Source of the DNA: Alphaproteobacteria bacterium | Lineage (GTDB): Bacteria > Pseudomonadota > Alphaproteobacteria > UBA828 | Assembly (NCBI GenBank): GCA_965214705.1 | Contig: OZ243972.1 | Coordinates: forward strand, 3,040,001 to 3,104,000 | DNA length: 64,000 bases | Direction: 5' to 3' | Part shown: in pieces, positions 17,322-26,179 of the stretch | How positions within the stretch are numbered: position 1 is the first letter of the stretch | Layout: the number at the start of each line of letters is the position of its first letter | Made by a program: the position numbers and the translations under genes | The notes under the pieces: model-generated | What the model was told of the DNA's origin: nothing | Seen by the model: the letters and a program-made list of their open reading frames with translations, nothing else | Databases searched by the model: none

Positions 17322-18320
17322 GTGGCTAGTGCCGAGCACCTGAAGGCACTGCTGAAATCGCACATGGAAGGCGATGACGACCGCTTCTTCTCCGTAGCCA
17401 TGCAGGTCGCCGCCCATGAAGCGAGGTTGGGTCACGGAAAGCTCGCCCAGGAATTGCGCGCGATGATCGACGATGCCAAGAGCCTGCGCGGCGCGGGATC
17501 GCCCGTGCCGATCGGTCGACCCCGCGGCGAATTGGCAACGCTGTTGGAGGATTCGTACCCGAAATCCCAGTTGGGTGAGATGATCCTCCGCGAGGAACTC
17601 TCGGAGCAGATTCAGCGCGTCATCCGTGAGCAGCGCCATGCCGGTCGAATTCTGGAGCACGGCCTAGCGCCGCGGCGCAAGCTGCTGCTGGTGGGACCGC
17701 CCGGTACAGGCAAGACGATGACCGCCTCCGTCCTTGCCGGTGAGTTGGGCCTGCCGCTCCTCCAAGTTCGGCTTGACGGTCTCATCACCAAGTTCATGGG
17801 CGAAACGGCGGCCAAGCTCAGACAGATCTTCGACGCCACGGGACGGACGCGAGGCGTCTATTTCTTCGACGAGTTCGATGCCATCGGTTCACAACGCGGC
17901 CTCGCCAACGACGTGGGCGAAATCCGCCGGGTCCTGAACAGCTTTCTCCAAATGATCGAGCAGGACCGTTCCCACAGCCTAGTGATCGCGGCGACCAATC
18001 ATCCCGACCTACTTGACTCGGCGCTCTTCCGACGCTTCGACGACGTACTGCATTACGACCTTCCCGACCGGTCGCAGATCGTGAAATTGCTGAGAACGCG
18101 TTTGTTGGGCAGCGCCTTGAAACGAGTTCGCTGGACCAGCCTCGCGGAGACCGCGGCAGGTTTGAACTATGCCGAGGTCACGCGTGCCGCCAACGAGGTA
18201 TTGAAGGACGCGCTTATTCATCGACGCAACCGCGTTGGAGAGTCAGACATTCGAATGATGCTCGAAGAGCGCAAATCCATCGTCGACAGGCTGAACGAGA
18301 AGACTGCGAAGAGTACATAG
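17322..18320 (+). CDS. ietA: AAA+ ATPase, IetA-like partner of the S8 protease
   Basis: GPPGTGKT, FFDEFD, ATNH, FRRFD; directly upstream of the S8 peptidase. Confidence 0.85.
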   Translation: MASAEHLKALLKSHMEGDDDRFFSVAMQVAAHEARLGHGKLAQELRAMIDDAKSLRGAGSPVPIGRPRGELATLLEDSYPKSQLGEMILREELSEQIQRVIREQRHAGRILEHGLAPRRKLLLVGPPGTGKTMTASVLAGELGLPLLQVRLDGLITKFMGETAAKLRQIFDATGRTRGVYFFDEFDAIGSQRGLANDVGEIRRVLNSFLQMIEQDRSHSLVIAATNHPDLLDSALFRRFDDVLHYDLPDRSQIVKLLRTRLLGSALKRVRWTSLAETAAGLNYAEVTRAANEVLKDALIHRRNRVGESDIRMMLEERKSIVDRLNEKTAKST

Positions 18321-20504
18321 TTCAAGGGTTTTAGCTGCCCCATGTCGAATGGAACCGACGAAAGACATCGGCACTTCATCCTTGAAGGAGTGACCGAAAC
18401 GGAAGCTTTTCGCTCGCGAGGCGGAGGCGGGCGGCTACCAATTCCACCGAGAAATCGCGCTCAGCATGGAGGTGCCCTACAGCGTCAGATCGACGAGTTG
18501 CGGACCGAAGCGGAGGCCGCAAGCGAGGCTCAGCAAGAAGCTGGGCTAGAAGACGGGCTGGGGCTCCAAATCGAGTTCGAGGGTTTTCCGGAGATCGAAC
18601 TGGCGTTCGAGAGCTTGGCTAGGGAAACGCAAGGCATCGAATTACTGAACGTCCGTCAAGATGAGGACCGCACGCACGCCACCGTGTTCGTTCCCGATGG
18701 AAGACTCGATCACTTCGAAGGCCTTATCCGCGATTACCTGTCAGAGAAGCGAGACAGCATCGGACGGCCCCGCGACAACCAGCGTCTGATCGACGCCATC
18801 AGTCAAATTAGGGCCGCGAGCCTCCGGGCACTGTGGACAGACGATCAGGAAGCTTTTCCTACCGATGACGAGGAACAGTTCTGGCGGGAGGTTTGGCTAC
18901 CGGTTCGCGGGAAGCAGCAAGTCGTGGTCGAAACGTTTCGCCGACTGGCGGAAGCCCAGGGGATGGAGGCTGCGCAGGGAGAGTTGATATTTCCTGAGCG
19001 CTCTGTGCTCCTAGTTCGTGCTTCCCGCGAGCAAATGGCAAGCTCCATTCTCACGCTCAACAGTATCGCTGAGTTGCGGCGAGCCAAAGAGACGGCGAAC
19101 TTCTTCGATTCCCTTGAGCCCGAGGAGCAGCGTGAGTGGTTTGAAAACCTGCTGAATCGTACCCGATTTTCGCCCGATGGCGATGTTGTGCCCTATGTCT
19201 GTCTGCTCGACACCGGTGCAAACCGGGGTCACCCGCTTCTCGCGCCTGCGCTTGCAGTTGACGACATGCACACGGTCGAACCGGCTTGGGGAGCCGGCGA
19301 CATCCAGGGTCACGGCACTCAGATGGCGGGGTTAGCTCTTGCCGGCGATCTAACGGAGTGTCTCGACGGCAACAATCCTGTGGTAGTCGATCATCGTCTG
19401 GAATCGGTGAAGCTGCTGCCGCACGACGGGGCTGGCGGAACCGACTCCCGTCACCATGGGCTGCTCACTATTGAGGCCGTCAGCCGACCAGAAGTCACGG
19501 CACCGGCTAGACTCAGAGTCTTTGGAATGGCCGTCACAGCCCGCGACAATCGGGATCGAGGACGGCCATCCGCCTGGTCAGCAGCCTTAGATTCGCTGGC
19601 CGCTGATGTCGACGGGTACGGCGCCCGTCCACGATTGCTGGTTGTTTCCGCCGGGAATATCGAGGACCCGAACGCATGGTCGGACTACCCCGAAAGCAAC
19701 GACAGCGATGGGGTGCATGACCCGGCCCAAGCCTGGAACGTACTCACGGTCGGAGCCTTTACAGATCTCGCGCGGATCACAGAACCCGATGCACAAGACT
19801 ACACACCAATCGCGCCGGGAGGCGGTCTCAGCCCTTTCAGCACCACGTCGGTAACATGGCAACCTCAATGGCCGCTCAAGCCGGATGTAGTGCTTGAAGG
19901 GGGTAACGCGGCCATGGACTCGCTGAGCACGGTTTGGATGCCGAGTCTCAGTCTTCTGACAACCCATCATCTGCCTGCTGATCGGCTCTTGACGACAGCA
20001 AACGCCACCAGTTCGGCAACAGCGCTCGCATCTCGCCTTGCTGCCCAGGTGATGGCCGAATACCCGGATCTTTGGCCGGAGACTATTCGCGCTCTGATCG
20101 TGCATTCAGCAAAGTGGACGGGCGCCATGAAACGGATGCACCTGGCGTCAAACCCGAAGCCGTCGAAAGCTGACTATCAGAACCTGCTGAGGCGATGTGG
20201 ATTCGGGGTTCCGGATCTGGACCGCGCTCTATGGAGCGTCTCGAATTCCTTGACCATGGTCGTCCAGGAAAGATTGAACGAAGCCGCTACGCGGAGTTAG
20301 CGGCGTAGAGTTCATTCATTTCCGAGGCGTCGCGGGTGCCGTTTGTTCTGTGCGTTCGCTTCCCGGTTGCGTCAGTGGCGCTCCGCCCGTCGGGTGGCGG
20401 ATCCCCAGCAGCCTCCCGATCACCAGTGGTTAGCATCGACCCCTGCGACGGACCGTCGCCGGATCGGTCCGGCGGCGCGCCGTCGCGATCCAGGGAGATC
20501 GATA

Positions 20505-21383
20505 ATGACCGGGACCGCGTGCGACACGAACACCGTCACCCCTCTTCGCCAGCGCATGGAGGAGCAGCTCCGCATCGCCAATCTGGCCGCGAGCACGTCC
20601 AAGGCCTACATCTGCGAGATCAAGAACCTGGCCAGGTACTACGACGCCTCGCCGGACGAGCTCGACGCCGAGCAGGTGCGCCAGTGGTACCTGGGGCGGA
20701 TCGACAAGGGGCTCAGTCCGGGCACGACCAACGTCTCCTTCGCCGCGCTGAACTTCCTCTACATCGACACACTCGGCTGGCCTGACCATGTCGCCGGCCT
20801 GCGCTCCCGCAAGAAGCCCGGCAAGCTGCCGCGCTACATGTCGGAGCAGGAGGTCGAGCACCTCATCCTTGCGACACCCGACCTCCGCCACCGTGCTGCC
20901 ATTGTCACCGGCTATGGCGGCGGGCTCCGCATCTCCGAGACCTTGGCCATCAAGGTCGGCGACATCCTGTCGGAGAAGAAGCTGCTGCACATCCCCTCCG
21001 GCAAAGGCGGCACCGAGAGAATGGCACCGTTGCCGGACATCGTCATCCACTACTTGCGCGTCTACTACAGGAACATCTGGCCGCGTCCGACGAACTGGCT
21101 CTTCTACGGCGTCTCGCTCGACAGGCCCATCGCAACGGAGACCTTGCAGGCCGCCTTCAGGAGGGCGCGCGACATTGCCGAGCTCGACCGCAGCTACACC
21201 TTCCATTGCCTGCGCCATTCGGCGGCGACCCATCTCCTCGAGCGCGGCGGCGATATCGAGGTGATCCGGGACATGCTCGGCCATCGAAGCGCGAACACGA
21301 CCCGTCACTACGCCCGCGTCACCGGCAAGATGTTCGAGGGCCTCGACCACCCGATCTCAGGCTTCGCAGCGTTGCGCAACTGA
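20505..21383 (+). CDS. tyrosine recombinase (292 aa)
   Basis: GLRISE, GKGG, HCLRHS, MLGH, TTRHY catalytic set; RBS AGGGAGA. Confidence 0.92.
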   Translation: MTGTACDTNTVTPLRQRMEEQLRIANLAASTSKAYICEIKNLARYYDASPDELDAEQVRQWYLGRIDKGLSPGTTNVSFAALNFLYIDTLGWPDHVAGLRSRKKPGKLPRYMSEQEVEHLILATPDLRHRAAIVTGYGGGLRISETLAIKVGDILSEKKLLHIPSGKGGTERMAPLPDIVIHYLRVYYRNIWPRPTNWLFYGVSLDRPIATETLQAAFRRARDIAELDRSYTFHCLRHSAATHLLERGGDIEVIRDMLGHRSANTTRHYARVTGKMFEGLDHPISGFAALRN

Positions 21384-21389
21384 CGGCGC

Positions 21390-22631
21390 GTGGAGGCCGA
21401 ACGCGCGGGCGTGGCGGAGATCTTCCGCCGCGCCGGCGCCGCTTTCCGTGAGCGCCACAAAGGGCGCATCGACGCCGCCCGGCTCAAGGTCATGGGCGCC
21501 ATCGAGGCGTGCCGCACCGCCGTGCTCGGCGGCCACATGTACGCCTGCGAGGGCTGCGGGCGCGAGCATCCGCTCTTCAACTCCTGCCGCAACCGCCACT
21601 GCCCCACCTGCCAGGGTCTCGCCGCCAACCTCTGGAGCGAGGAGCGCGCCGGGGACATCCTGCCGGTGCCCTACTTCCATGTGGTCTTCACCCTGCCCAA
21701 GGAGGTTGCCGCCATTGCCTTCTGCAACCGCAGGGTGGTGTTCGACATCCTCTTCCGGGCCGTCGCCGAGACCCTGCGCACCATCGCCGCCGATCCCCGC
21801 CACGGCGGCATGCGCATCGGCGGCACCGCGGTCCTCCATACCTGGGATCAGAAGCTCCGCTTCCACCCGCACCTGCACGTGGTCGTGCCCAACGCGGGCT
21901 TCGACGTAGACAGTGGCGAGTGGAAGACGGGGAGCACCACCTTCCTCGCCCCCGTCAAGGTCCTCGGCAGCCTGTTCCGCCGCCTCTTCCTCGAGGAGCT
22001 CGCCCGCGCCCACGGCCGGGGGGACCTGGAGTTCCACGGCACCGTCGCCCACCTCGCCAATCCCGGCGAGTTCCACGCCACGCTTGCCGCCGCCCGGGCC
22101 AGGGACTGGGTGGTCTACGCCAAGCGGCCCTTCCGCGGGCCTGAGCAGGTCTTCCGGTACCTCTCGCACTACACGCACAGGATCGCCATCTCCGACAGCC
22201 GCATCGTCTCCTTCGACGGCGAGACGGTCTCCTTCCGCCACCGAAAGCCCAAGGCGCCGGGGCAGAGAAAGCCGCGCTACGGCATCGCCACCGTGAGCGC
22301 CGACGAGTTCATCCGCCGCTTCCTGAGGCACGTCCTGCCGGACGGCATGCACCGCACTCGCTACTTCGGCATCCTCGCCAACGGCTGCCGCGCCAGCACG
22401 CTGGAGAGAGCACGCCAGGCTCTCGGCGCCCTCGGCTGCGCCGCCCCCGAGGGAAGCGTGGACGGCGCTCAGGCCGAGCCCGACGAAGAGCCCGAGATCG
22501 GCACCGCGCCCGTGGCCTGCCCCCACTGCGGCGGCGTCATGCGCCTCGTCCGCGAAATCCGCCGCCGCCATGAGCCCCGCTCGACGCGCGGCCCGCCGGC
22601 GCTGCCGCCGACCCACAGGGGGAAACCGTGA
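21390..22631 (+). CDS. IS91-family HUH/Y2 transposase with Zn-binding domain
   Basis: CEGC...SCRNRHCPTC, HVVFTLP, HPHLH (HUH), YLSHY (Y2), C-terminal CPHC. Confidence 0.92.
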   Translation: MEAERAGVAEIFRRAGAAFRERHKGRIDAARLKVMGAIEACRTAVLGGHMYACEGCGREHPLFNSCRNRHCPTCQGLAANLWSEERAGDILPVPYFHVVFTLPKEVAAIAFCNRRVVFDILFRAVAETLRTIAADPRHGGMRIGGTAVLHTWDQKLRFHPHLHVVVPNAGFDVDSGEWKTGSTTFLAPVKVLGSLFRRLFLEELARAHGRGDLEFHGTVAHLANPGEFHATLAAARARDWVVYAKRPFRGPEQVFRYLSHYTHRIAISDSRIVSFDGETVSFRHRKPKAPGQRKPRYGIATVSADEFIRRFLRHVLPDGMHRTRYFGILANGCRASTLERARQALGALGCAAPEGSVDGAQAEPDEEPEIGTAPVACPHCGGVMRLVREIRRRHEPRSTRGPPALPPTHRGKP

Positions 22632-22893
22632 GACGGCCGCTCGCTTCGGCCCCGCGCAACGGCGCCAAAGCGCCGACGCACGACCGAACCTGTCTCCGCT
22701 TGAGCCGGGCTGACAGCCCTCGGCTCACACCCCGCTCAGTCCTCGCAGCGTGCGCCCGCATGCCTGCCGAAAGACCGGCGCGAGCGTCGATTTTATGCGC
22801 AACTCTGCTGCCGGTGGATGCCGCCTGACGCTGACATCAGCGCACTTTCCACATAGCTCAACTTCGCCTCTCGTGGCCCGCGGCTTCGTTCAA

Positions 22894-22935
22894 AAGGGTT
22901 GGGCAGGCTCTCGAGAGAGAGCCTGCCCAACCCTT
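22894..22935. other. perfect 19-bp hairpin with GAGA loop at the element right end (also 26040-26081)
   Basis: aagggttgggcaggctctc-gaga-gagagcctgcccaaccctt. Confidence 0.95.
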
Positions 22936-23650
22936 AACCTTGCACCCCTTCAAGAAGGAACCACGAAAGCAGCCCGCGCCTCGCGATATGCATCTCCACA
23001 ATTTGCCCTGGCCTGCAGACGTCTTGGAGAGCTTGGGGGAGACACCAGTCGAGATGCGCGTAACGCTTTCCTATTTCGTCGAACCCAACCCATCGCAGCG
23101 AGGCATTCGTTCTCGCTACCGATACGAGTCCCACGGTCTTCGCTTCGAAGTCAAAAGGGCGCTGGAAACGGTCGACGCTTTTCGCGGACGGATCAACGCG
23201 GTGGCGCGAGATGAAGAAGAGGGGAGCGCAAGAAGCTCCAGTGATCCAGCGTGGTTGATCGGTACGCAGAGTCGTCACAGGGGTTCTCTCCATGGGGACA
23301 TTTGGCGGGGGAGTGCCGCTGATCTCGCAAGTCGAGGGCACATAGCCATCTATCCTTCAATGGGGTGGTGGAGAACGCGCCCCGTGCTGGAACGGTACGA
23401 TCAAGCGGCTCGATACGCTTTGAACGAAGCCGCTACGCGGAGTTAGCGGCGTAGAGTTCATTCATTTCCGAGGCGTCGCGGGTGCCGTTTGTTCTGTGCG
23501 TTCGCTTCCCGGTTGCGTCAGTGGCGCTCCGCCCGTCGGGTGGCGGATCCCCAGCAGCCTCCCGATCACCAGTGGTTAGCATCGACCCCTGCGACGGACC
23601 GTCGCCGGATCGGTCCGGCGGCGCGCCGTCGCGATCCAGGGAGATCGATA

Positions 23651-24529
23651 ATGACCGGGACCGCGTGCGACACGAACACCGTCACCCCTCTTCGCCAGCG
23701 CATGGAGGAGCAGCTCCGCATCGCCAATCTGGCCGCGAGCACGTCCAAGGCCTACATCTGCGAGATCAAGAACCTGGCCAGGTACTACGACGCCTCGCCG
23801 GACGAGCTCGACGCCGAGCAGGTGCGCCAGTGGTACCTGGGGCGGATCGACAAGGGGCTCAGTCCGGGCACGACCAACGTCTCCTTCGCCGCGCTGAACT
23901 TCCTCTACATCGACACACTCGGCTGGCCTGACCATGTCGCCGGCCTGCGCTCCCGCAAGAAGCCCGGCAAGCTGCCGCGCTACATGTCGGAGCAGGAGGT
24001 CGAGCACCTCATCCTTGCGACACCCGACCTCCGCCACCGTGCTGCCATTGTCACCGGCTATGGCGGCGGGCTCCGCATCTCCGAGACCTTGGCCATCAAG
24101 GTCGGCGACATCCTGTCGGAGAAGAAGCTGCTGCACATCCCCTCCGGCAAAGGCGGCACCGAGAGAATGGCACCGTTGCCGGACATCGTCATCCACTACT
24201 TGCGCGTCTACTACAGGAACATCTGGCCGCGTCCGACGAGCTGGCTCTTCTACGGCGTCTCGCTCGACAGGCCCATCGCAACGGAGACCTTGCAGGCCGC
24301 CTTCAGGAGGGCGCGCGACATTGCCGAGCTCGACCGCAGCTACACCTTCCATTGCCTGCGCCATTCGGCGGCGACCCATCTCCTCGAGCGCGGCGGCGAT
24401 ATCGAGGTGATCCGGGACATGCTCGGCCATCGAAGCGCGAACACGACCCGTCACTACGCCCGCGTCACCGGCAAGATGTTCGAGGGCCTCGACCACCCGA
24501 TCTCAGGCTTCGCAGCGTTGCGCAACTGA
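23651..24529 (+). CDS. tyrosine recombinase (copy 2)
   Basis: As copy 1, with one N>S change. Confidence 0.92.
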   Translation: MTGTACDTNTVTPLRQRMEEQLRIANLAASTSKAYICEIKNLARYYDASPDELDAEQVRQWYLGRIDKGLSPGTTNVSFAALNFLYIDTLGWPDHVAGLRSRKKPGKLPRYMSEQEVEHLILATPDLRHRAAIVTGYGGGLRISETLAIKVGDILSEKKLLHIPSGKGGTERMAPLPDIVIHYLRVYYRNIWPRPTSWLFYGVSLDRPIATETLQAAFRRARDIAELDRSYTFHCLRHSAATHLLERGGDIEVIRDMLGHRSANTTRHYARVTGKMFEGLDHPISGFAALRN

Positions 24530-24535
24530 CGGCGC

Positions 24536-25777
24536 GTGGAGGCCGAACGCGCGGGCGTGGCGGAGATCTTCCGCCGCGCCGGCGCCGCTTTCCGTGAGCG
24601 CCACAAAGGGCGCATCGACGCCGCCCGGCTCAAGGTCATGGGCGCCATCGAGGCGTGCCGCACCGCCGTGCTCGGCGGCCACATGTACGCCTGCGAGGGC
24701 TGCGGGCGCGAGCATCCGCTCTTCAACTCCTGCCGCAACCGCCACTGCCCCACCTGCCAGGGTCTCGCCGCCAACCTCTGGAGCGAGGAGCGCGCCGGGG
24801 ACATCCTGCCGGTGCCCTACTTCCATGTGGTCTTCACCCTGCCCAAGGAGGTTGCCGCCATTGCCTTCTGCAACCGCAGGGTGGTGTTCGACATCCTCTT
24901 CCGGGCCGTCGCCGAGACCCTGCGCACCATCGCCGCCGATCCCCGCCACGGCGGCATGCGCATCGGCGGCACCGCGGTCCTCCATACCTGGGATCAGAAG
25001 CTCCGCTTCCACCCGCACCTGCACGTGGTCGTGCCCAACGCGGGCTTCGACGTAGACAGTGGCGAGTGGAAGACGGGGAGCACCACCTTCCTCGCCCCCG
25101 TCAAGGTCCTCGGCAGCCTGTTCCGCCGCCTCTTCCTCGAGGAGCTCGCCCGCGCCCACGGCCGGGGGGACCTGGAGTTCCACGGCACCCTCGCCCACCT
25201 CGCCAATCCCGGCGAGTTCCACGCCACGCTTGCCGCCGCCCGGGCCAGGGACTGGGTGGTCTACGCCAAGCGGCCCTTCCGCGGGCCTGAGCAGGTCTTC
25301 CGGTACCTCTCGCACTACACGCACAGGATCGCCATCTCCGACAGCCGCATCGTCTCCTTCGACGGCGAGACGGTCTCCTTCCGCCACCGAAAGCCCAAGG
25401 CGCCGGGGCAGAGAAAGCCGCGCTACGGCATCGCCACCGTGAGCGCCGACGAGTTCATCCGCCGCTTCCTGAGGCACGTCCTGCCGGACGGCATGCACCG
25501 CATTCGCTACTTCGGCATCCTCGCCAACGGCTGCCGCGCCAGCACGCTGGAGAGAGCACGCCAGGCTCTCGGCGCCCTCGGCTGCGCCGCCCCCGAGGGA
25601 AGCGTGGACGGCGCTCGGGCCGAGCCCGACGAAGAGCCCGAGATCGGCACCGCGCCCGTGGCCTGCCCCCACTGCGGCGGCGTCATGCGCCTCGTCCGCG
25701 AAATCCGCCGCCGCCATGAGCCCCGCTCGACGCGCGGCCCGCCGGCGCTGCCGCCGACCCACAGGGGGAAACCGTGA
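24536..25777 (+). CDS. IS91-family transposase (copy 2)
   Basis: As copy 1, with V>L, T>I and Q>R changes. Confidence 0.92.
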   Translation: MEAERAGVAEIFRRAGAAFRERHKGRIDAARLKVMGAIEACRTAVLGGHMYACEGCGREHPLFNSCRNRHCPTCQGLAANLWSEERAGDILPVPYFHVVFTLPKEVAAIAFCNRRVVFDILFRAVAETLRTIAADPRHGGMRIGGTAVLHTWDQKLRFHPHLHVVVPNAGFDVDSGEWKTGSTTFLAPVKVLGSLFRRLFLEELARAHGRGDLEFHGTLAHLANPGEFHATLAAARARDWVVYAKRPFRGPEQVFRYLSHYTHRIAISDSRIVSFDGETVSFRHRKPKAPGQRKPRYGIATVSADEFIRRFLRHVLPDGMHRIRYFGILANGCRASTLERARQALGALGCAAPEGSVDGARAEPDEEPEIGTAPVACPHCGGVMRLVREIRRRHEPRSTRGPPALPPTHRGKP

Positions 25778-26179
25778 GACGCCCGCTCGCTTCGGCCCCG
25801 CGCAACGGCGCCAAAGCGCCGACGCACGACCGAACCTGTCTCCGCTTGAGCCGGGCTGACAGCCCTCGGCTCACACCCCGCTCAGTCCTCGCAGCGTGCG
25901 CCCGCATGCCTGCCGAAAGACCGGCGCGAGCGTCGATTTTATGCGCAACTCTGCTGCCGGTGGATGCCGCCTGACGCTGACATCAGCGCACTTTCCACAT
26001 AGCTCAACTTCGCCTCTCGTGGCCCGCGGCTTCGTTCAAAAGGGTTGGGCAGGCTCTCGAGAGAGAGCCTGCCCAACCCTTAACCTTGGTCGTCAGCATC
26101 AAGGCACCGGAAACCGATATCGATCTTTATAGTGAAGTCGCAAACCAGATCGACGCTTCGGTCATCATTCAAACCTGAC

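What the first reader, a model, noticed from the sequence alone, without database searches (positions are those of the whole stretch)
20274..22942. Tyrosine recombinase + HUH/Y2 element whose joined ends rebuild a folded ssDNA att-like hairpin
Seen: the right end reads GCGGCTTCGTTCAA-AAGGGTTGGGCAGGCTCTC-GAGA-GAGAGCCTGCCCAACCCTT-AACC-TTG (22880-22942) and the left end reads TTG-AACGAAGCCGC (20274-20287). Circularising through the shared TTG completes a local 14+19-bp hairpin with a GAGA loop and an unpaired AACC bulge next to the crossover. The junction CTTGAAC contains both IS91 tetramers (CTTG, and GTTC on the other strand). Both targets read TTGnnC (TTGCAC, TTGGTC), like the TTGAAC arm. Known: IS91 enzymes make ssDNA circles; integron attC and CTXphi attP are folded ssDNA substrates of tyrosine recombinases; int+IS91 gene pairs exist. 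Inference: a hybrid route in which HUH makes the ssDNA circle and the recombinase inserts its folded junction into a minimal target. I cannot confirm that this mechanism is undescribed.
Basis: partly seen in the sequence, partly recalled or inferred. Interest (0 to 1): 0.85.

Follow-up and report, generated by a model that had tools for sequence, protein, structure and literature searches.

The report
IS91-type insertion sequence with integrase
This is one of about a hundred copies of a rolling-circle (IS91-family) jumping gene that also carries an integrase, and its two ends can pair into a conserved single-strand hairpin, but what the integrase does is still open.

Summary
The sequence observation is correct. 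The left end TTGAACGAAGCCGC is the exact reverse complement of a stretch just before a perfect 19-bp hairpin at the right end.

The element is 2666 bp (20274-22939). It is an IS91-family insertion sequence with a tyrosine recombinase gene upstream of a Y2-HUH transposase gene. Two copies lie in the window, both inside an ietS defence gene. The genome holds 100 left ends.

The "shared TTG" is not shared. The left TTG belongs to the element. The right triplet is the target's own: TTG in only 40 of 86 copies, and empty paralogous sites keep one triplet. Insertion makes no duplication, as in IS91.

The end architecture recurs in 31 non-redundant relatives with unrelated hairpin sequences. Its mismatches favour folding of the strand opposite the genes. 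Six integrase-less IS91-family elements lack the end-to-end repeat. The integrase accompanies the transposase in 99 of 108 loci, with catalytic residues invariant.

Most likely the HUH transposase does the rolling-circle transposition and the fold serves termination and circle closure.

The parts
20274..22939 (+). Copy 1 of the insertion sequence, 2666 bp, from TTGAACG... to ...CCCTTAACC
   Evidence: Boundaries from 100 left and 86 right ends in the genome, empty paralogous sites and the uninterrupted orthologue
20274..20287 (+). Left terminal arm TTGAACGAAGCCGC. Inferred terIS end; on the bottom strand it reads ...CGTTCAA and the cut follows it
   Evidence: Exact reverse complement of 22880-22893. 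TTG constant in 96 of 100 copies. The terIS assignment follows the IS91 gene order in PMC13181058 and is inferred
20283..20304 (+). Local left-end palindrome GCCGCTA / TAGCGGC with an 8-nt loop. It overlaps the arm, so it is an alternative pairing
   Evidence: Fold. A small CCGC-loop-GCGG hairpin follows the arm in the relatives too
20505..21383 (+). Tyrosine recombinase gene (292 aa), Xer/IntI-like, no arm-binding domain
   Evidence: PF00589 and PF13495. Below the cut-off of all NCBIfam Xer/IntI models. R142 K167 H234 R237 H260 Y269 invariant in 13 of 13 homologues
21390..22631 (+). IS91-family Y2-HUH transposase gene (413 aa), GTG start 6 nt after the recombinase stop
   Evidence: PF14319 and PF04986. 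NF033538, 380 bits against a cut-off of 125. HxH, Y257/Y261 and the zinc cysteines invariant in 11 of 11
22880..22893 (+). Right subterminal arm GCGGCTTCGTTCAA, complement of the left terminus
   Evidence: Cognate arms found in relatives
22894..22935 (+). Perfect 19-bp hairpin with loop GAGA
   Evidence: Loop is GAGA in 84 copies and flipped to TCTC in 6
22936..22939 (+). Tail AACC, the last bases of the element. Inferred oriIS cut on the bottom strand between the target triplet and GGTT
   Evidence: Constant in all 86 right ends. The cut position is inferred
22940..22942 (+). Target triplet TTG. This is host gene DNA, not part of the element
   Evidence: Single TTG in the uninterrupted orthologue
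23420..26085 (+). Copy 2 of the same element, same orientation, 480 bp downstream of copy 1, followed by the target triplet TTG at 26086-26088
18342..26178 (+). Host gene ietS (S8 peptidase of an IetAS defence pair), split into three pieces: 18342-20273, 22940-23419 and 26086-26178
   Evidence: PF00082. PADLOC IetS 2.7e-33, and IetA 3.2e-73 for 17322-18320. Continuity shown by the orthologue

Best explanation
The element is an active, hugely expanded IS91-family rolling-circle insertion sequence. It belongs to the subgroup that carries a tyrosine recombinase gene upstream of the transposase gene.

Shown: it inserts without target duplication immediately 5' of a T-T-rich triplet (preferred C|TTGnCCG). 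It brings its own TTG at the left end and leaves the target's triplet at the right end.

Inferred from the IS91 model and gene order: the Y2-HUH transposase nicks the bottom strand at the right end (oriIS), between the target-derived ...CAA and GGTT. Replication displaces that strand. When the left end (terIS, ...CGTTCAA) is displaced, its last 14 bases pair with the arm that sits just behind the 19-bp hairpin. This brings the termination site next to the enzyme-bound 5' end for cutting and circle closure. The same enzyme then joins the strand after a ...CAA-like target.

On this reading the hairpin and the end-to-end repeat are single-strand signals of the bottom strand. TTG is no crossover core.

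The recombinase is a conserved, catalytically intact partner whose step is not known. My preferred guess is processing of double-stranded or tandem by-products, such as dimer or cointegrate resolution or circle handling, rather than the primary insertion.
For: Family: IS91 transposase model at 380 bits against a cut-off of 125. HUH, both tyrosines and the zinc cysteines are invariant.

Activity: 100 left and 86 right ends in a 7.9-Mb genome. There are 58 uninterrupted copies, with the recombinase frame open in 58 of 58 and the transposase frame in 54 of 58.

No duplication, and the target triplet is kept on the right: 18 of 22 sites with empty paralogues, and both window sites.

This matches what PMC13181058 (passages) reports for IS91, IS801 and IS1294: no duplication, a short target next to oriIS downstream of tnpA, a related cut sequence inside terIS upstream, and palindromes at both ends.

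A tandem dimer sits at G000 C2 643960-649295. Wrap-around contigs L045 and L089 contain a right-end-to-left-end junction.

Architecture conserved: 42 of 75 loci have the repeat in the expected places, 32 of them with an adjacent hairpin, 31 non-redundant. Stems are 8-24 bp and loops 4-39 nt.

Bottom-strand folding: hairpin mismatches read on the top strand are A.C 16, C.C 21, C.T 3, A.A 1 and G.T 0. On the bottom strand these are G.T, G.G and G.A. The hairpin is more stable on the bottom strand in 29 of 31 elements. The arms are more stable on the bottom strand in 21, equal in 4, and more stable on the top strand in 6. The hairpin bias (-3.1 kcal/mol) exceeds that of same-length control windows (-1.2; Mann-Whitney p 1e-5).
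Against: Classical IS91-family members lack the end-to-end repeat. Six integrase-less elements scored 8-11, while their shuffled controls had means of 8.9-9.6 and maxima of 10-14. The fold therefore tracks the presence of the recombinase and could be its substrate.

The recombinase keeps all six catalytic residues in 13 of 13 homologues at 26-39% identity. It sits upstream of the transposase in 99 of 108 loci. So it does chemistry that the HUH-only account does not need.

Part of the strand bias is compositional. Control windows also favour the bottom strand (47 against 11 of 62), and the top strand is C-rich there. The sequences are related, so the p-values overstate.

No circle, strand or cut position was observed directly. 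Only contigs were available and they showed no joint.

The resemblance between target and left end does not carry over to other clades. It did not hold in G224 (GGATTG...), G403 or G401, and held only in 3 of 3 loci of the GTTGGAC... clade.

Four of the 22 empty-site comparisons depart from the rule: one or two extra T, one TCG read as TTG, and one diverged copy.
Confidence: 0.68

Rival explanations
1. The HUH transposase makes a single-stranded circle. The tyrosine recombinase binds the folded junction, as IntI does on attC or XerCD on CTX-phi attP, and exchanges one strand with a minimal TTG-type target. Replication finishes the insertion.
For: The folded junction is conserved and biased to one strand. 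It is absent from 6 integrase-less IS91-family elements.

The recombinase is always present and catalytically intact.

A preprint passage places IS91-linked recombinases in the integron-like subgroup, nearest IntI (10.1101/542381).

The cut lies at the border between a paired arm and an unpaired 4-nt stretch, which suits a tyrosine recombinase.

A single-strand exchange 5' of TTG gives exactly the observed flanks.
Against: The same flank pattern is produced by the transposase alone in IS91 (PMC13181058 passages).

I saw no two-fold pair of similar arms around the bulge.

The protein matches the integron-integrase models only in two stretches and below cut-off. The preprint says the IntI insertion is absent. 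An eLife 2020 abstract (PMC7790495, search listing) ties single-strand recombination by IntI to that I2 helix.

The IS91 remark is missing from the published version of the preprint.

The bulge length is not conserved. The tail is 4 nt in this element and 4-5 nt in its two variants in this genome, 6 nt in the GTTGGAC... clade, and 6-9 nt in G224, G401 and G403.
Confidence: 0.2
2. The recombinase alone moves the element as a double-stranded circle by conventional excision and integration through a TTG core. The HUH protein only replicates the circle.
For: Both ends abut T-T-G-like triplets. A junction form exists in the tandem dimer and in two wrap-around contigs.
Against: The right triplet differs from TTG in 46 of 86 copies. 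Empty sites keep only one triplet, so there is no duplicated core.

About 100 copies imply copying rather than cut-and-paste.

No site of two inverted arms with a 6-8-bp spacer is conserved. Loops range from 4 to 39 nt.
Confidence: 0.05
3. The hairpin is an RNA-level or host-level signal, such as a transcription terminator shielding the element, and is unrelated to transposition.
For: In this element the bottom strand reads the hairpin followed by TTTTG. G.T-type mismatches would also be tolerated in RNA.
Against: There is no T-run after the hairpin in the relatives. G.G mismatches (21) do not help an RNA stem.

The hairpin is always flanked by the complement of the other terminus and sits 4-9 nt from the element's end.
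Confidence: 0.03

Closest known systems
IS91, IS801, IS1294 (IS91 family, rolling-circle transposition by a Y2-HUH transposase)
   Same: Homologous transposase with its zinc-binding domain. No target duplication. Short target next to the end downstream of tnpA, and a related sequence as the last bases of the upstream end. Palindromes near both ends. An extra gene upstream of tnpA, as orf121 is in IS91.
   Different: The upstream gene is a catalytic tyrosine recombinase. The cut context is ...CAA^ rather than CTTG^ or GTTC^. There is a 14-20-nt complementarity between the left terminus and a right subterminal arm, plus a long hairpin. The six integrase-less elements I examined lack that repeat.
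Integron cassettes: folded bottom-strand attC recombined by IntI
   Same: A site completed only when the two ends of the unit are joined. Bottom-strand folding. Tolerated or conserved mismatches in the stem. A preprint places IS91-linked recombinases next to IntI.
   Different: No IntI-specific insertion. The arms do not fit the GTTRRRY / RYYYAAC boxes as I recall them; that comparison was not computed in any call. An HUH transposase is present, and the element is an autonomous, multi-copy IS. No recombination was shown.
CTX-phi attP(+) recombined by XerCD
   Same: A Xer-like recombinase could act on a folded single strand that mimics a duplex site, with replication completing the insertion. 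This rests on recalled knowledge and on the introduction of PMC9345347.
   Different: No dif-like two-arm core is seen in the fold. The target here is a degenerate heptamer rather than a 28-bp dif site.
IS200/IS605 (IS608) Y1-HUH 'peel and paste' elements
   Same: Subterminal hairpins recognised in single-stranded DNA. The target resembles the sequence at one end. No duplication (recalled; PMC5027513 seen in a search listing only).
   Different: The transposase is Y2 with a zinc domain. Long Watson-Crick pairing joins the two ends. I found no orientation bias relative to GC skew after masking.
Helitrons (Helraiser)
   Same: Rolling-circle HUH transposon with a hairpin near one end that acts in termination (PMC4778049 abstract).
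   Different: Here the hairpin lies at the inferred origin end of the transferred strand, and the strand bias points to the bottom strand. This element is prokaryotic and has no helicase domain.
Tn3-family replicative transposons with a tyrosine resolvase (TnpI/IRS of Tn4430)
   Same: A replicative transposase coupled to a small tyrosine recombinase. This is the model for my preferred guess about the recombinase (PMC2847244 abstract).
   Different: No resolution site of fixed geometry was identified. A tandem dimer persists in the genome.
Strand-biased circularizing integrative elements (SE) of Vibrio
   Same: Tyrosine recombinases producing a strand-biased circular intermediate, with copy-out behaviour (PMC9345347 title and introduction passage; PMC10214605 abstract).
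   Different: Those elements have no HUH enzyme, several recombinase genes and a much larger size.

Membership tests
IS91 family | Y2-HUH transposase with an N-terminal zinc-binding domain | tested here: met
   PF14319 4e-30 and PF04986 8e-54. NF033538, 380 bits against a cut-off of 125. H159/H161, Y257/Y261 and the cysteines invariant in 11 of 11
IS91 family | No target-site duplication | tested here: met
   18 of 22 empty paralogous sites keep exactly one triplet. The uninterrupted orthologue has a single TTG at both window sites
IS91 family | Short specific target abutting the end downstream of tnpA (oriIS), and a related cut sequence as the last bases of the upstream end (terIS) | tested here: met
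   The right-flank triplet is variable but T-T-rich. The left TTG is constant. Logos. The sequence differs from CTTG/GTTC. Strand and cut positions are inferred from PMC13181058
IS91 family | Subterminal palindromes at both ends | tested here: met
   19-bp hairpin at the right end. 7-bp palindrome at the left end
IS91 family | No terminal inverted repeats (as stated for IS91 in PMC5714925, passage) | tested here: not met
   A 14-nt perfect repeat between the left terminus and the right subterminal arm. It is absent in 6 integrase-less members. This is a descriptive rather than a defining trait
IS91 family | Single-stranded and double-stranded circles with an ori-ter junction; one-ended transposition | tested here: inconclusive
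   Only contigs of public runs could be laid, and they showed no joint. A tandem dimer and two wrap-around contigs show the joined form as DNA
Integron-type system (IntI with folded attC) | Integrase with the IntI-specific extra helix (I2) | tested here: not met
   TIGR02249 130 bits against a cut-off of 265, in two stretches. PRK15417 74 bits against 435. The preprint says the insertion is absent in IS91-linked recombinases
Integron-type system (IntI with folded attC) | Recombination site formed by folding of the bottom strand, completed by joining the unit's two ends | tested here: inconclusive
   The fold and the bottom-strand bias are present. No evidence shows that a recombinase uses the fold
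IS200/IS605 family | Small Y1-HUH transposase | tested here: not met
   The transposase matches the Y2 family and the IS91 zinc domain only

The most novel reading that the evidence does not exclude
The integrase-bearing IS91 subgroup transposes by a two-enzyme route. The HUH transposase peels off and circularises the bottom strand. The joined ends fold into an attC-like bulged hairpin. The Xer/IntI-like recombinase exchanges one strand of that fold with a degenerate target. If so, these elements would be a living relative of the step from which integron cassette recombination (a folded bottom-strand site completed by joining the two ends) arose.
Probability: 0.2. Interest if true: 0.85.

Novelty: new member of a known kind. 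Interest (0 to 1): 0.5.

Why it matters
IS91-family elements move resistance and virulence genes, yet their mechanism is still only partly known. The role of the recombinase in the integrase-bearing subgroup appears unstudied: my seven library searches found no paper on it.

This genome offers about a hundred near-identical copies. That gave a clean insertion rule, a conserved end-to-end fold, and a strand bias that says which strand folds.

If the recombinase uses that fold, it would be a new way of combining the two main single-strand DNA enzyme families, and a lead on the origin of integron recombination. If it does not, the element is an ordinary but very successful IS91 relative. It has, among other things, knocked out an IetAS defence gene twice.

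Tried and rejected
Orientation against replication: before masking, element orientation correlated with local GC skew. After masking all copies the correlation vanished (for example 35/15 against 35/15 at 50 kb). It was an artefact of the element's own skew (-0.11). The skew of this rearranged genome is weak, so the test has little power.

Read evidence for circles: 20 of the 24 listed runs hold the element, and all of those are kept as contigs. Four were laid (X1, X2, X5, X9). They showed no joint. Element depth was 240-460 against flank depth of 4-6 in two of them. Contigs drop rare forms, so this says nothing about circles.

Complex prediction of transposase with recombinase: no verdict, score 0.00. 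This is neither for nor against binding.

A 'guide' idea, that the right arm pairs with the target as well as with the left end: in this element the target resembles the left end only at TTG..CG. In other clades (G224, G403, G401) the right flanks do not resemble the left end. Dropped as a general rule.

Serine recombinase in place of the integrase (L141): it is single-copy in that genome. Homology to the other copies starts right after its stop codon. I read it as a truncated element next to an unrelated gene.

Left-end hairpin strand bias: the top strand folds better in 22 of 31, but a control stretch further in shows the same (21 of 28). I draw no conclusion from it.

Duplex recombinase core sites: nothing convincing in the non-coding ends. 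Loop and spacer lengths vary too much among relatives.

The supplementary data of PMC13181058 (IS91 isoform ends) and the figures and supplements of 10.1101/542381 (placement of IS91-linked recombinases) could bear on the comparison, and I did not see them. The statement that ISfinder lists integrase-bearing IS91 members is recalled, not checked. My search for recalled IS names returned no paper that I confirmed to describe such members: I read passages of only one hit, PMC9229058, which names ISShvi3 as IS91-like and says nothing about an integrase.


Full report
WHAT IS THERE

It holds two co-oriented genes 6 nt apart.
- The first encodes a 292-aa tyrosine recombinase (PF00589, PF13495).
- The second encodes a 413-aa IS91-family transposase (PF14319 zinc domain, PF04986 Y2 domain; NF033538 at 380 bits against a cut-off of 125).

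A second copy lies at 23420-26085. Both copies sit inside one S8-peptidase gene next to an AAA ATPase. PADLOC names the pair IetS and IetA.

COPY NUMBER AND BOUNDARIES

The window's genome (7.9 Mb, 3 contigs) holds 100 left ends and 86 right ends of the element. Pairing them gave 87 left-right pairs. Of these, 58 are uninterrupted, with 54 at the modal length. The recombinase frame is open in 58 of 58 and the transposase frame in 54 of 58.

- The three bases before AACGAAGCC are TTG in 96 of 100 copies.
- The three bases after CCCTTAACC are TTG 40, TTT 15, TTC 9, CGA 8, and others 14, of 86.

Because the genome is full of other repeats, 22 occupied sites have empty paralogous copies. In 18 of them the empty site carries a single triplet identical to the one to the right of the element (TTG 11, TTC 4, CTT, TTA and CTA one each). 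The four exceptions are two with one or two extra T after AACC, one where the empty copies read TCG but the occupied site reads TTG, and one old, diverged copy.

A congeneric genome has the uninterrupted ietS orthologue (75-78% identical) with a single TTG at each of the two window sites.

So the element is 2666 bp (20274-22939). It begins with its own TTG and ends with AACC. It inserts 5' of the target's triplet and makes no duplication.

The target preference is C|TTGnCCG. In 86 flank pairs the -1 base is C in 46; T 63, T 74 and G 40 occupy positions 1-3; position 6 is C in 55 and position 7 is G in 46. Background is 33% C or G and 17% A or T.

HOW THIS MAPS ON IS91

Passages of PMC13181058 state the following for IS91, IS801 and IS1294:
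- No duplication.
- A target tetranucleotide next to oriIS, which lies downstream of tnpA.
- A related cut tetranucleotide inside terIS, which lies upstream.
- Palindromes near both ends.
- Single- and double-stranded circles with ori and ter side by side.

The element fits if the bottom strand is the one cut and moved. That gives target ...CAA^GGTT... at the right end and ...CGTTCAA^ at the left end.

The literal CTTG and GTTC in the junction are not used the way IS91 uses them. The cut lies two bases beyond GTTC.

THE FOLD

The right end alone folds at -28.5 kcal/mol (z -6.7).

The left arm also takes part in a local 7-bp palindrome, so two pairings compete.

IS THE FOLD CONSERVED?

The transposase was searched in 401 genomes of the phylum (27 with a match, own genome included) and in one genome per species of a large collection (best 80 loci kept).

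Of 108 loci with a transposase match, 99 have the recombinase directly upstream. The nine others are:
- three contig ends;
- three fragments;
- one head-to-head pair;
- one with other DNA upstream;
- one truncated copy beside a serine recombinase.

The recombinase keeps R, K, H, R, H and Y in 13 of 13 homologues at 26-39% identity. The transposase keeps HUH, both tyrosines and the zinc cysteines in 11 of 11.

Of 75 loci with enough flank, a crude ungapped scan found the following:
- The left-end/right-arm complementarity in the expected places in 42.
- A hairpin starting within 9 nt after the arm in 32 of those, 31 non-redundant.
- Hairpin sequences falling into about 14 unrelated types.
- Stems of 8-24 bp and loops of 4-39 nt.

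Cognate arm scores average 12.2, against 9.7 for non-cognate pairs and 9.2 for shuffles.

The remaining 33 loci were not shown to lack the fold. Several visibly carry it but were missed by the scan.

The variable loop length argues against a duplex recombinase core with a fixed spacer, and for a structure.

WHICH STRAND FOLDS?

In the 31 hairpins (453 pairs), every mismatch read on the top strand is A.C (16), C.C (21), C.T (3) or A.A (1). None is G.T, G.G or A.G. On the bottom strand these become G.T, G.G and G.A, the mild kinds.

The hairpin is more stable on the bottom strand in 29 of 31. The arm duplex is more stable on the bottom strand in 21, equal in 4, and more stable on the top strand in 6.

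A control was needed. Same-length windows just upstream also favour the bottom strand (47 against 11 of 62, mean -1.2 kcal/mol), because the top strand there is C-rich and A-rich. The hairpin bias is larger (mean -3.1, Mann-Whitney p 1e-5).

The sequences are related, so these figures overstate independence. Even so, the bias appears in at least 12 of the 14 hairpin types.

The bottom strand is the one the IS91 model moves.

Two further observations suggest that the palindrome pairs within one strand in vivo:
- The loop is flipped (TCTC instead of GAGA) in 6 copies against 84.
- The one tandem-dimer junction carries an extra GGTT and a flipped loop, which makes a perfect 37-bp palindrome.

IS THE FOLD TIED TO THE RECOMBINASE?

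I checked six integrase-less IS91-family elements from plasmids: IS91 with orf121, an IS801-like element, two IS1294-like elements, one from Enterococcus and one from Arsenophonus. They show no left/right complementarity above noise. Scores were 8-11, while their shuffled controls had means of 8.9-9.6 and maxima of 10-14. The one score of 11 lies outside the element.

This is a correlation over few clades. It could equally be a trait of this transposase clade.

WHAT THE RECOMBINASE DOES

It is Xer/IntI-like and below every curated cut-off. Its best solved relatives are XerC-like, XerD and IntI4.

A preprint passage says IS91-linked recombinases are the closest relatives of IntI but lack its insertion. 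The published version drops the remark. An abstract ties IntI's single-strand activity to that insertion (PMC7790495, search listing).

The flank pattern cannot separate an HUH insertion from a single-strand exchange by a recombinase followed by replication.

The conserved catalytic residues mean that the recombinase does cut and join something. My guess is resolution or handling of tandem and circular by-products, as in Tn3-family elements with TnpI, but no site was found.

VERDICT

The TTG crossover is not supported. The hybrid mechanism remains open.

The element is a new member of the catalogued but uncharacterised integrase-bearing IS91 subgroup. Seven library searches found no paper on that recombinase's role.

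Noticed in passing
window 17322-26178: The two copies interrupt ietS, the S8 protease gene of an IetAS defence pair (IetA 3.2e-73, IetS 2.7e-33 in PADLOC). They lie 480 bp apart in the same orientation, so the defence system is knocked out twice.
   Followed up: partly
L065 (G000 C1:39433-41081); element position 1306, which corresponds to window 21579: A 1649-bp IS110-family element (PF01548, PF02371) sits at exactly the same place in the transposase gene in many copies. There are 18 full copies in the genome, and 10 composites of about 4313 bp at 10 different sites. Either it targets that site very precisely, or the composite is mobilised in trans.
   Followed up: partly
L066 (G000 C2:692238-694400): A roughly 2.1-kb repeat encoding a DDE_Tnp_1 transposase abuts the right end (AACC|CGAACTTCC...) in 8 copies that have different left flanks. 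This is a recurrent end-to-end neighbourhood of two insertion sequences.
   Followed up: partly
L067:2665-2750 (G000 C2, tandem dimer junction): The only tandem dimer has an extra GGTT before the hairpin and a flipped loop. The arm, bulge and stem therefore form a perfect 37-bp palindrome. It looks like a template-switch 'correction' of a quasi-palindrome.
   Followed up: partly
G000, 6 copies: The hairpin loop reads TCTC instead of GAGA in 6 copies against 84, in elements that are otherwise about 99.8% identical. This is a flip-flop polymorphism of the loop.
   Followed up: no
L045 (whole contig, 2958 bp) and L089 (whole contig, 2984 bp): Short contigs from two other species run from the right end straight into the left end of the same element. 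Tandem or circular forms were therefore present in those assemblies.
   Followed up: partly
L141:158-2311: A 717-aa large serine recombinase ends 25 nt before the open frame of an IS91-type transposase. It is single-copy in that genome, and the insertion sequence is truncated there, so this is probably chance.
   Followed up: yes
L108: Two transposase genes of this family lie head to head with no recombinase gene between them.
   Followed up: no
right non-coding part of the element in 31 relatives: The top strand is C-rich and A-rich (G 695, C 1177, A 740, T 546 in the control windows). Cytosine deamination of a frequently single-stranded bottom strand would give this skew.
   Followed up: no
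G000 C1:2529559, C1:2726901, C3:130356, C3:468407, C3:548288: Two diverged variants of the element (about 80% identical) coexist in the genome. They have the same left end, compensatory changes in the hairpin, and tails AAGA and AAAGA.
   Followed up: partly
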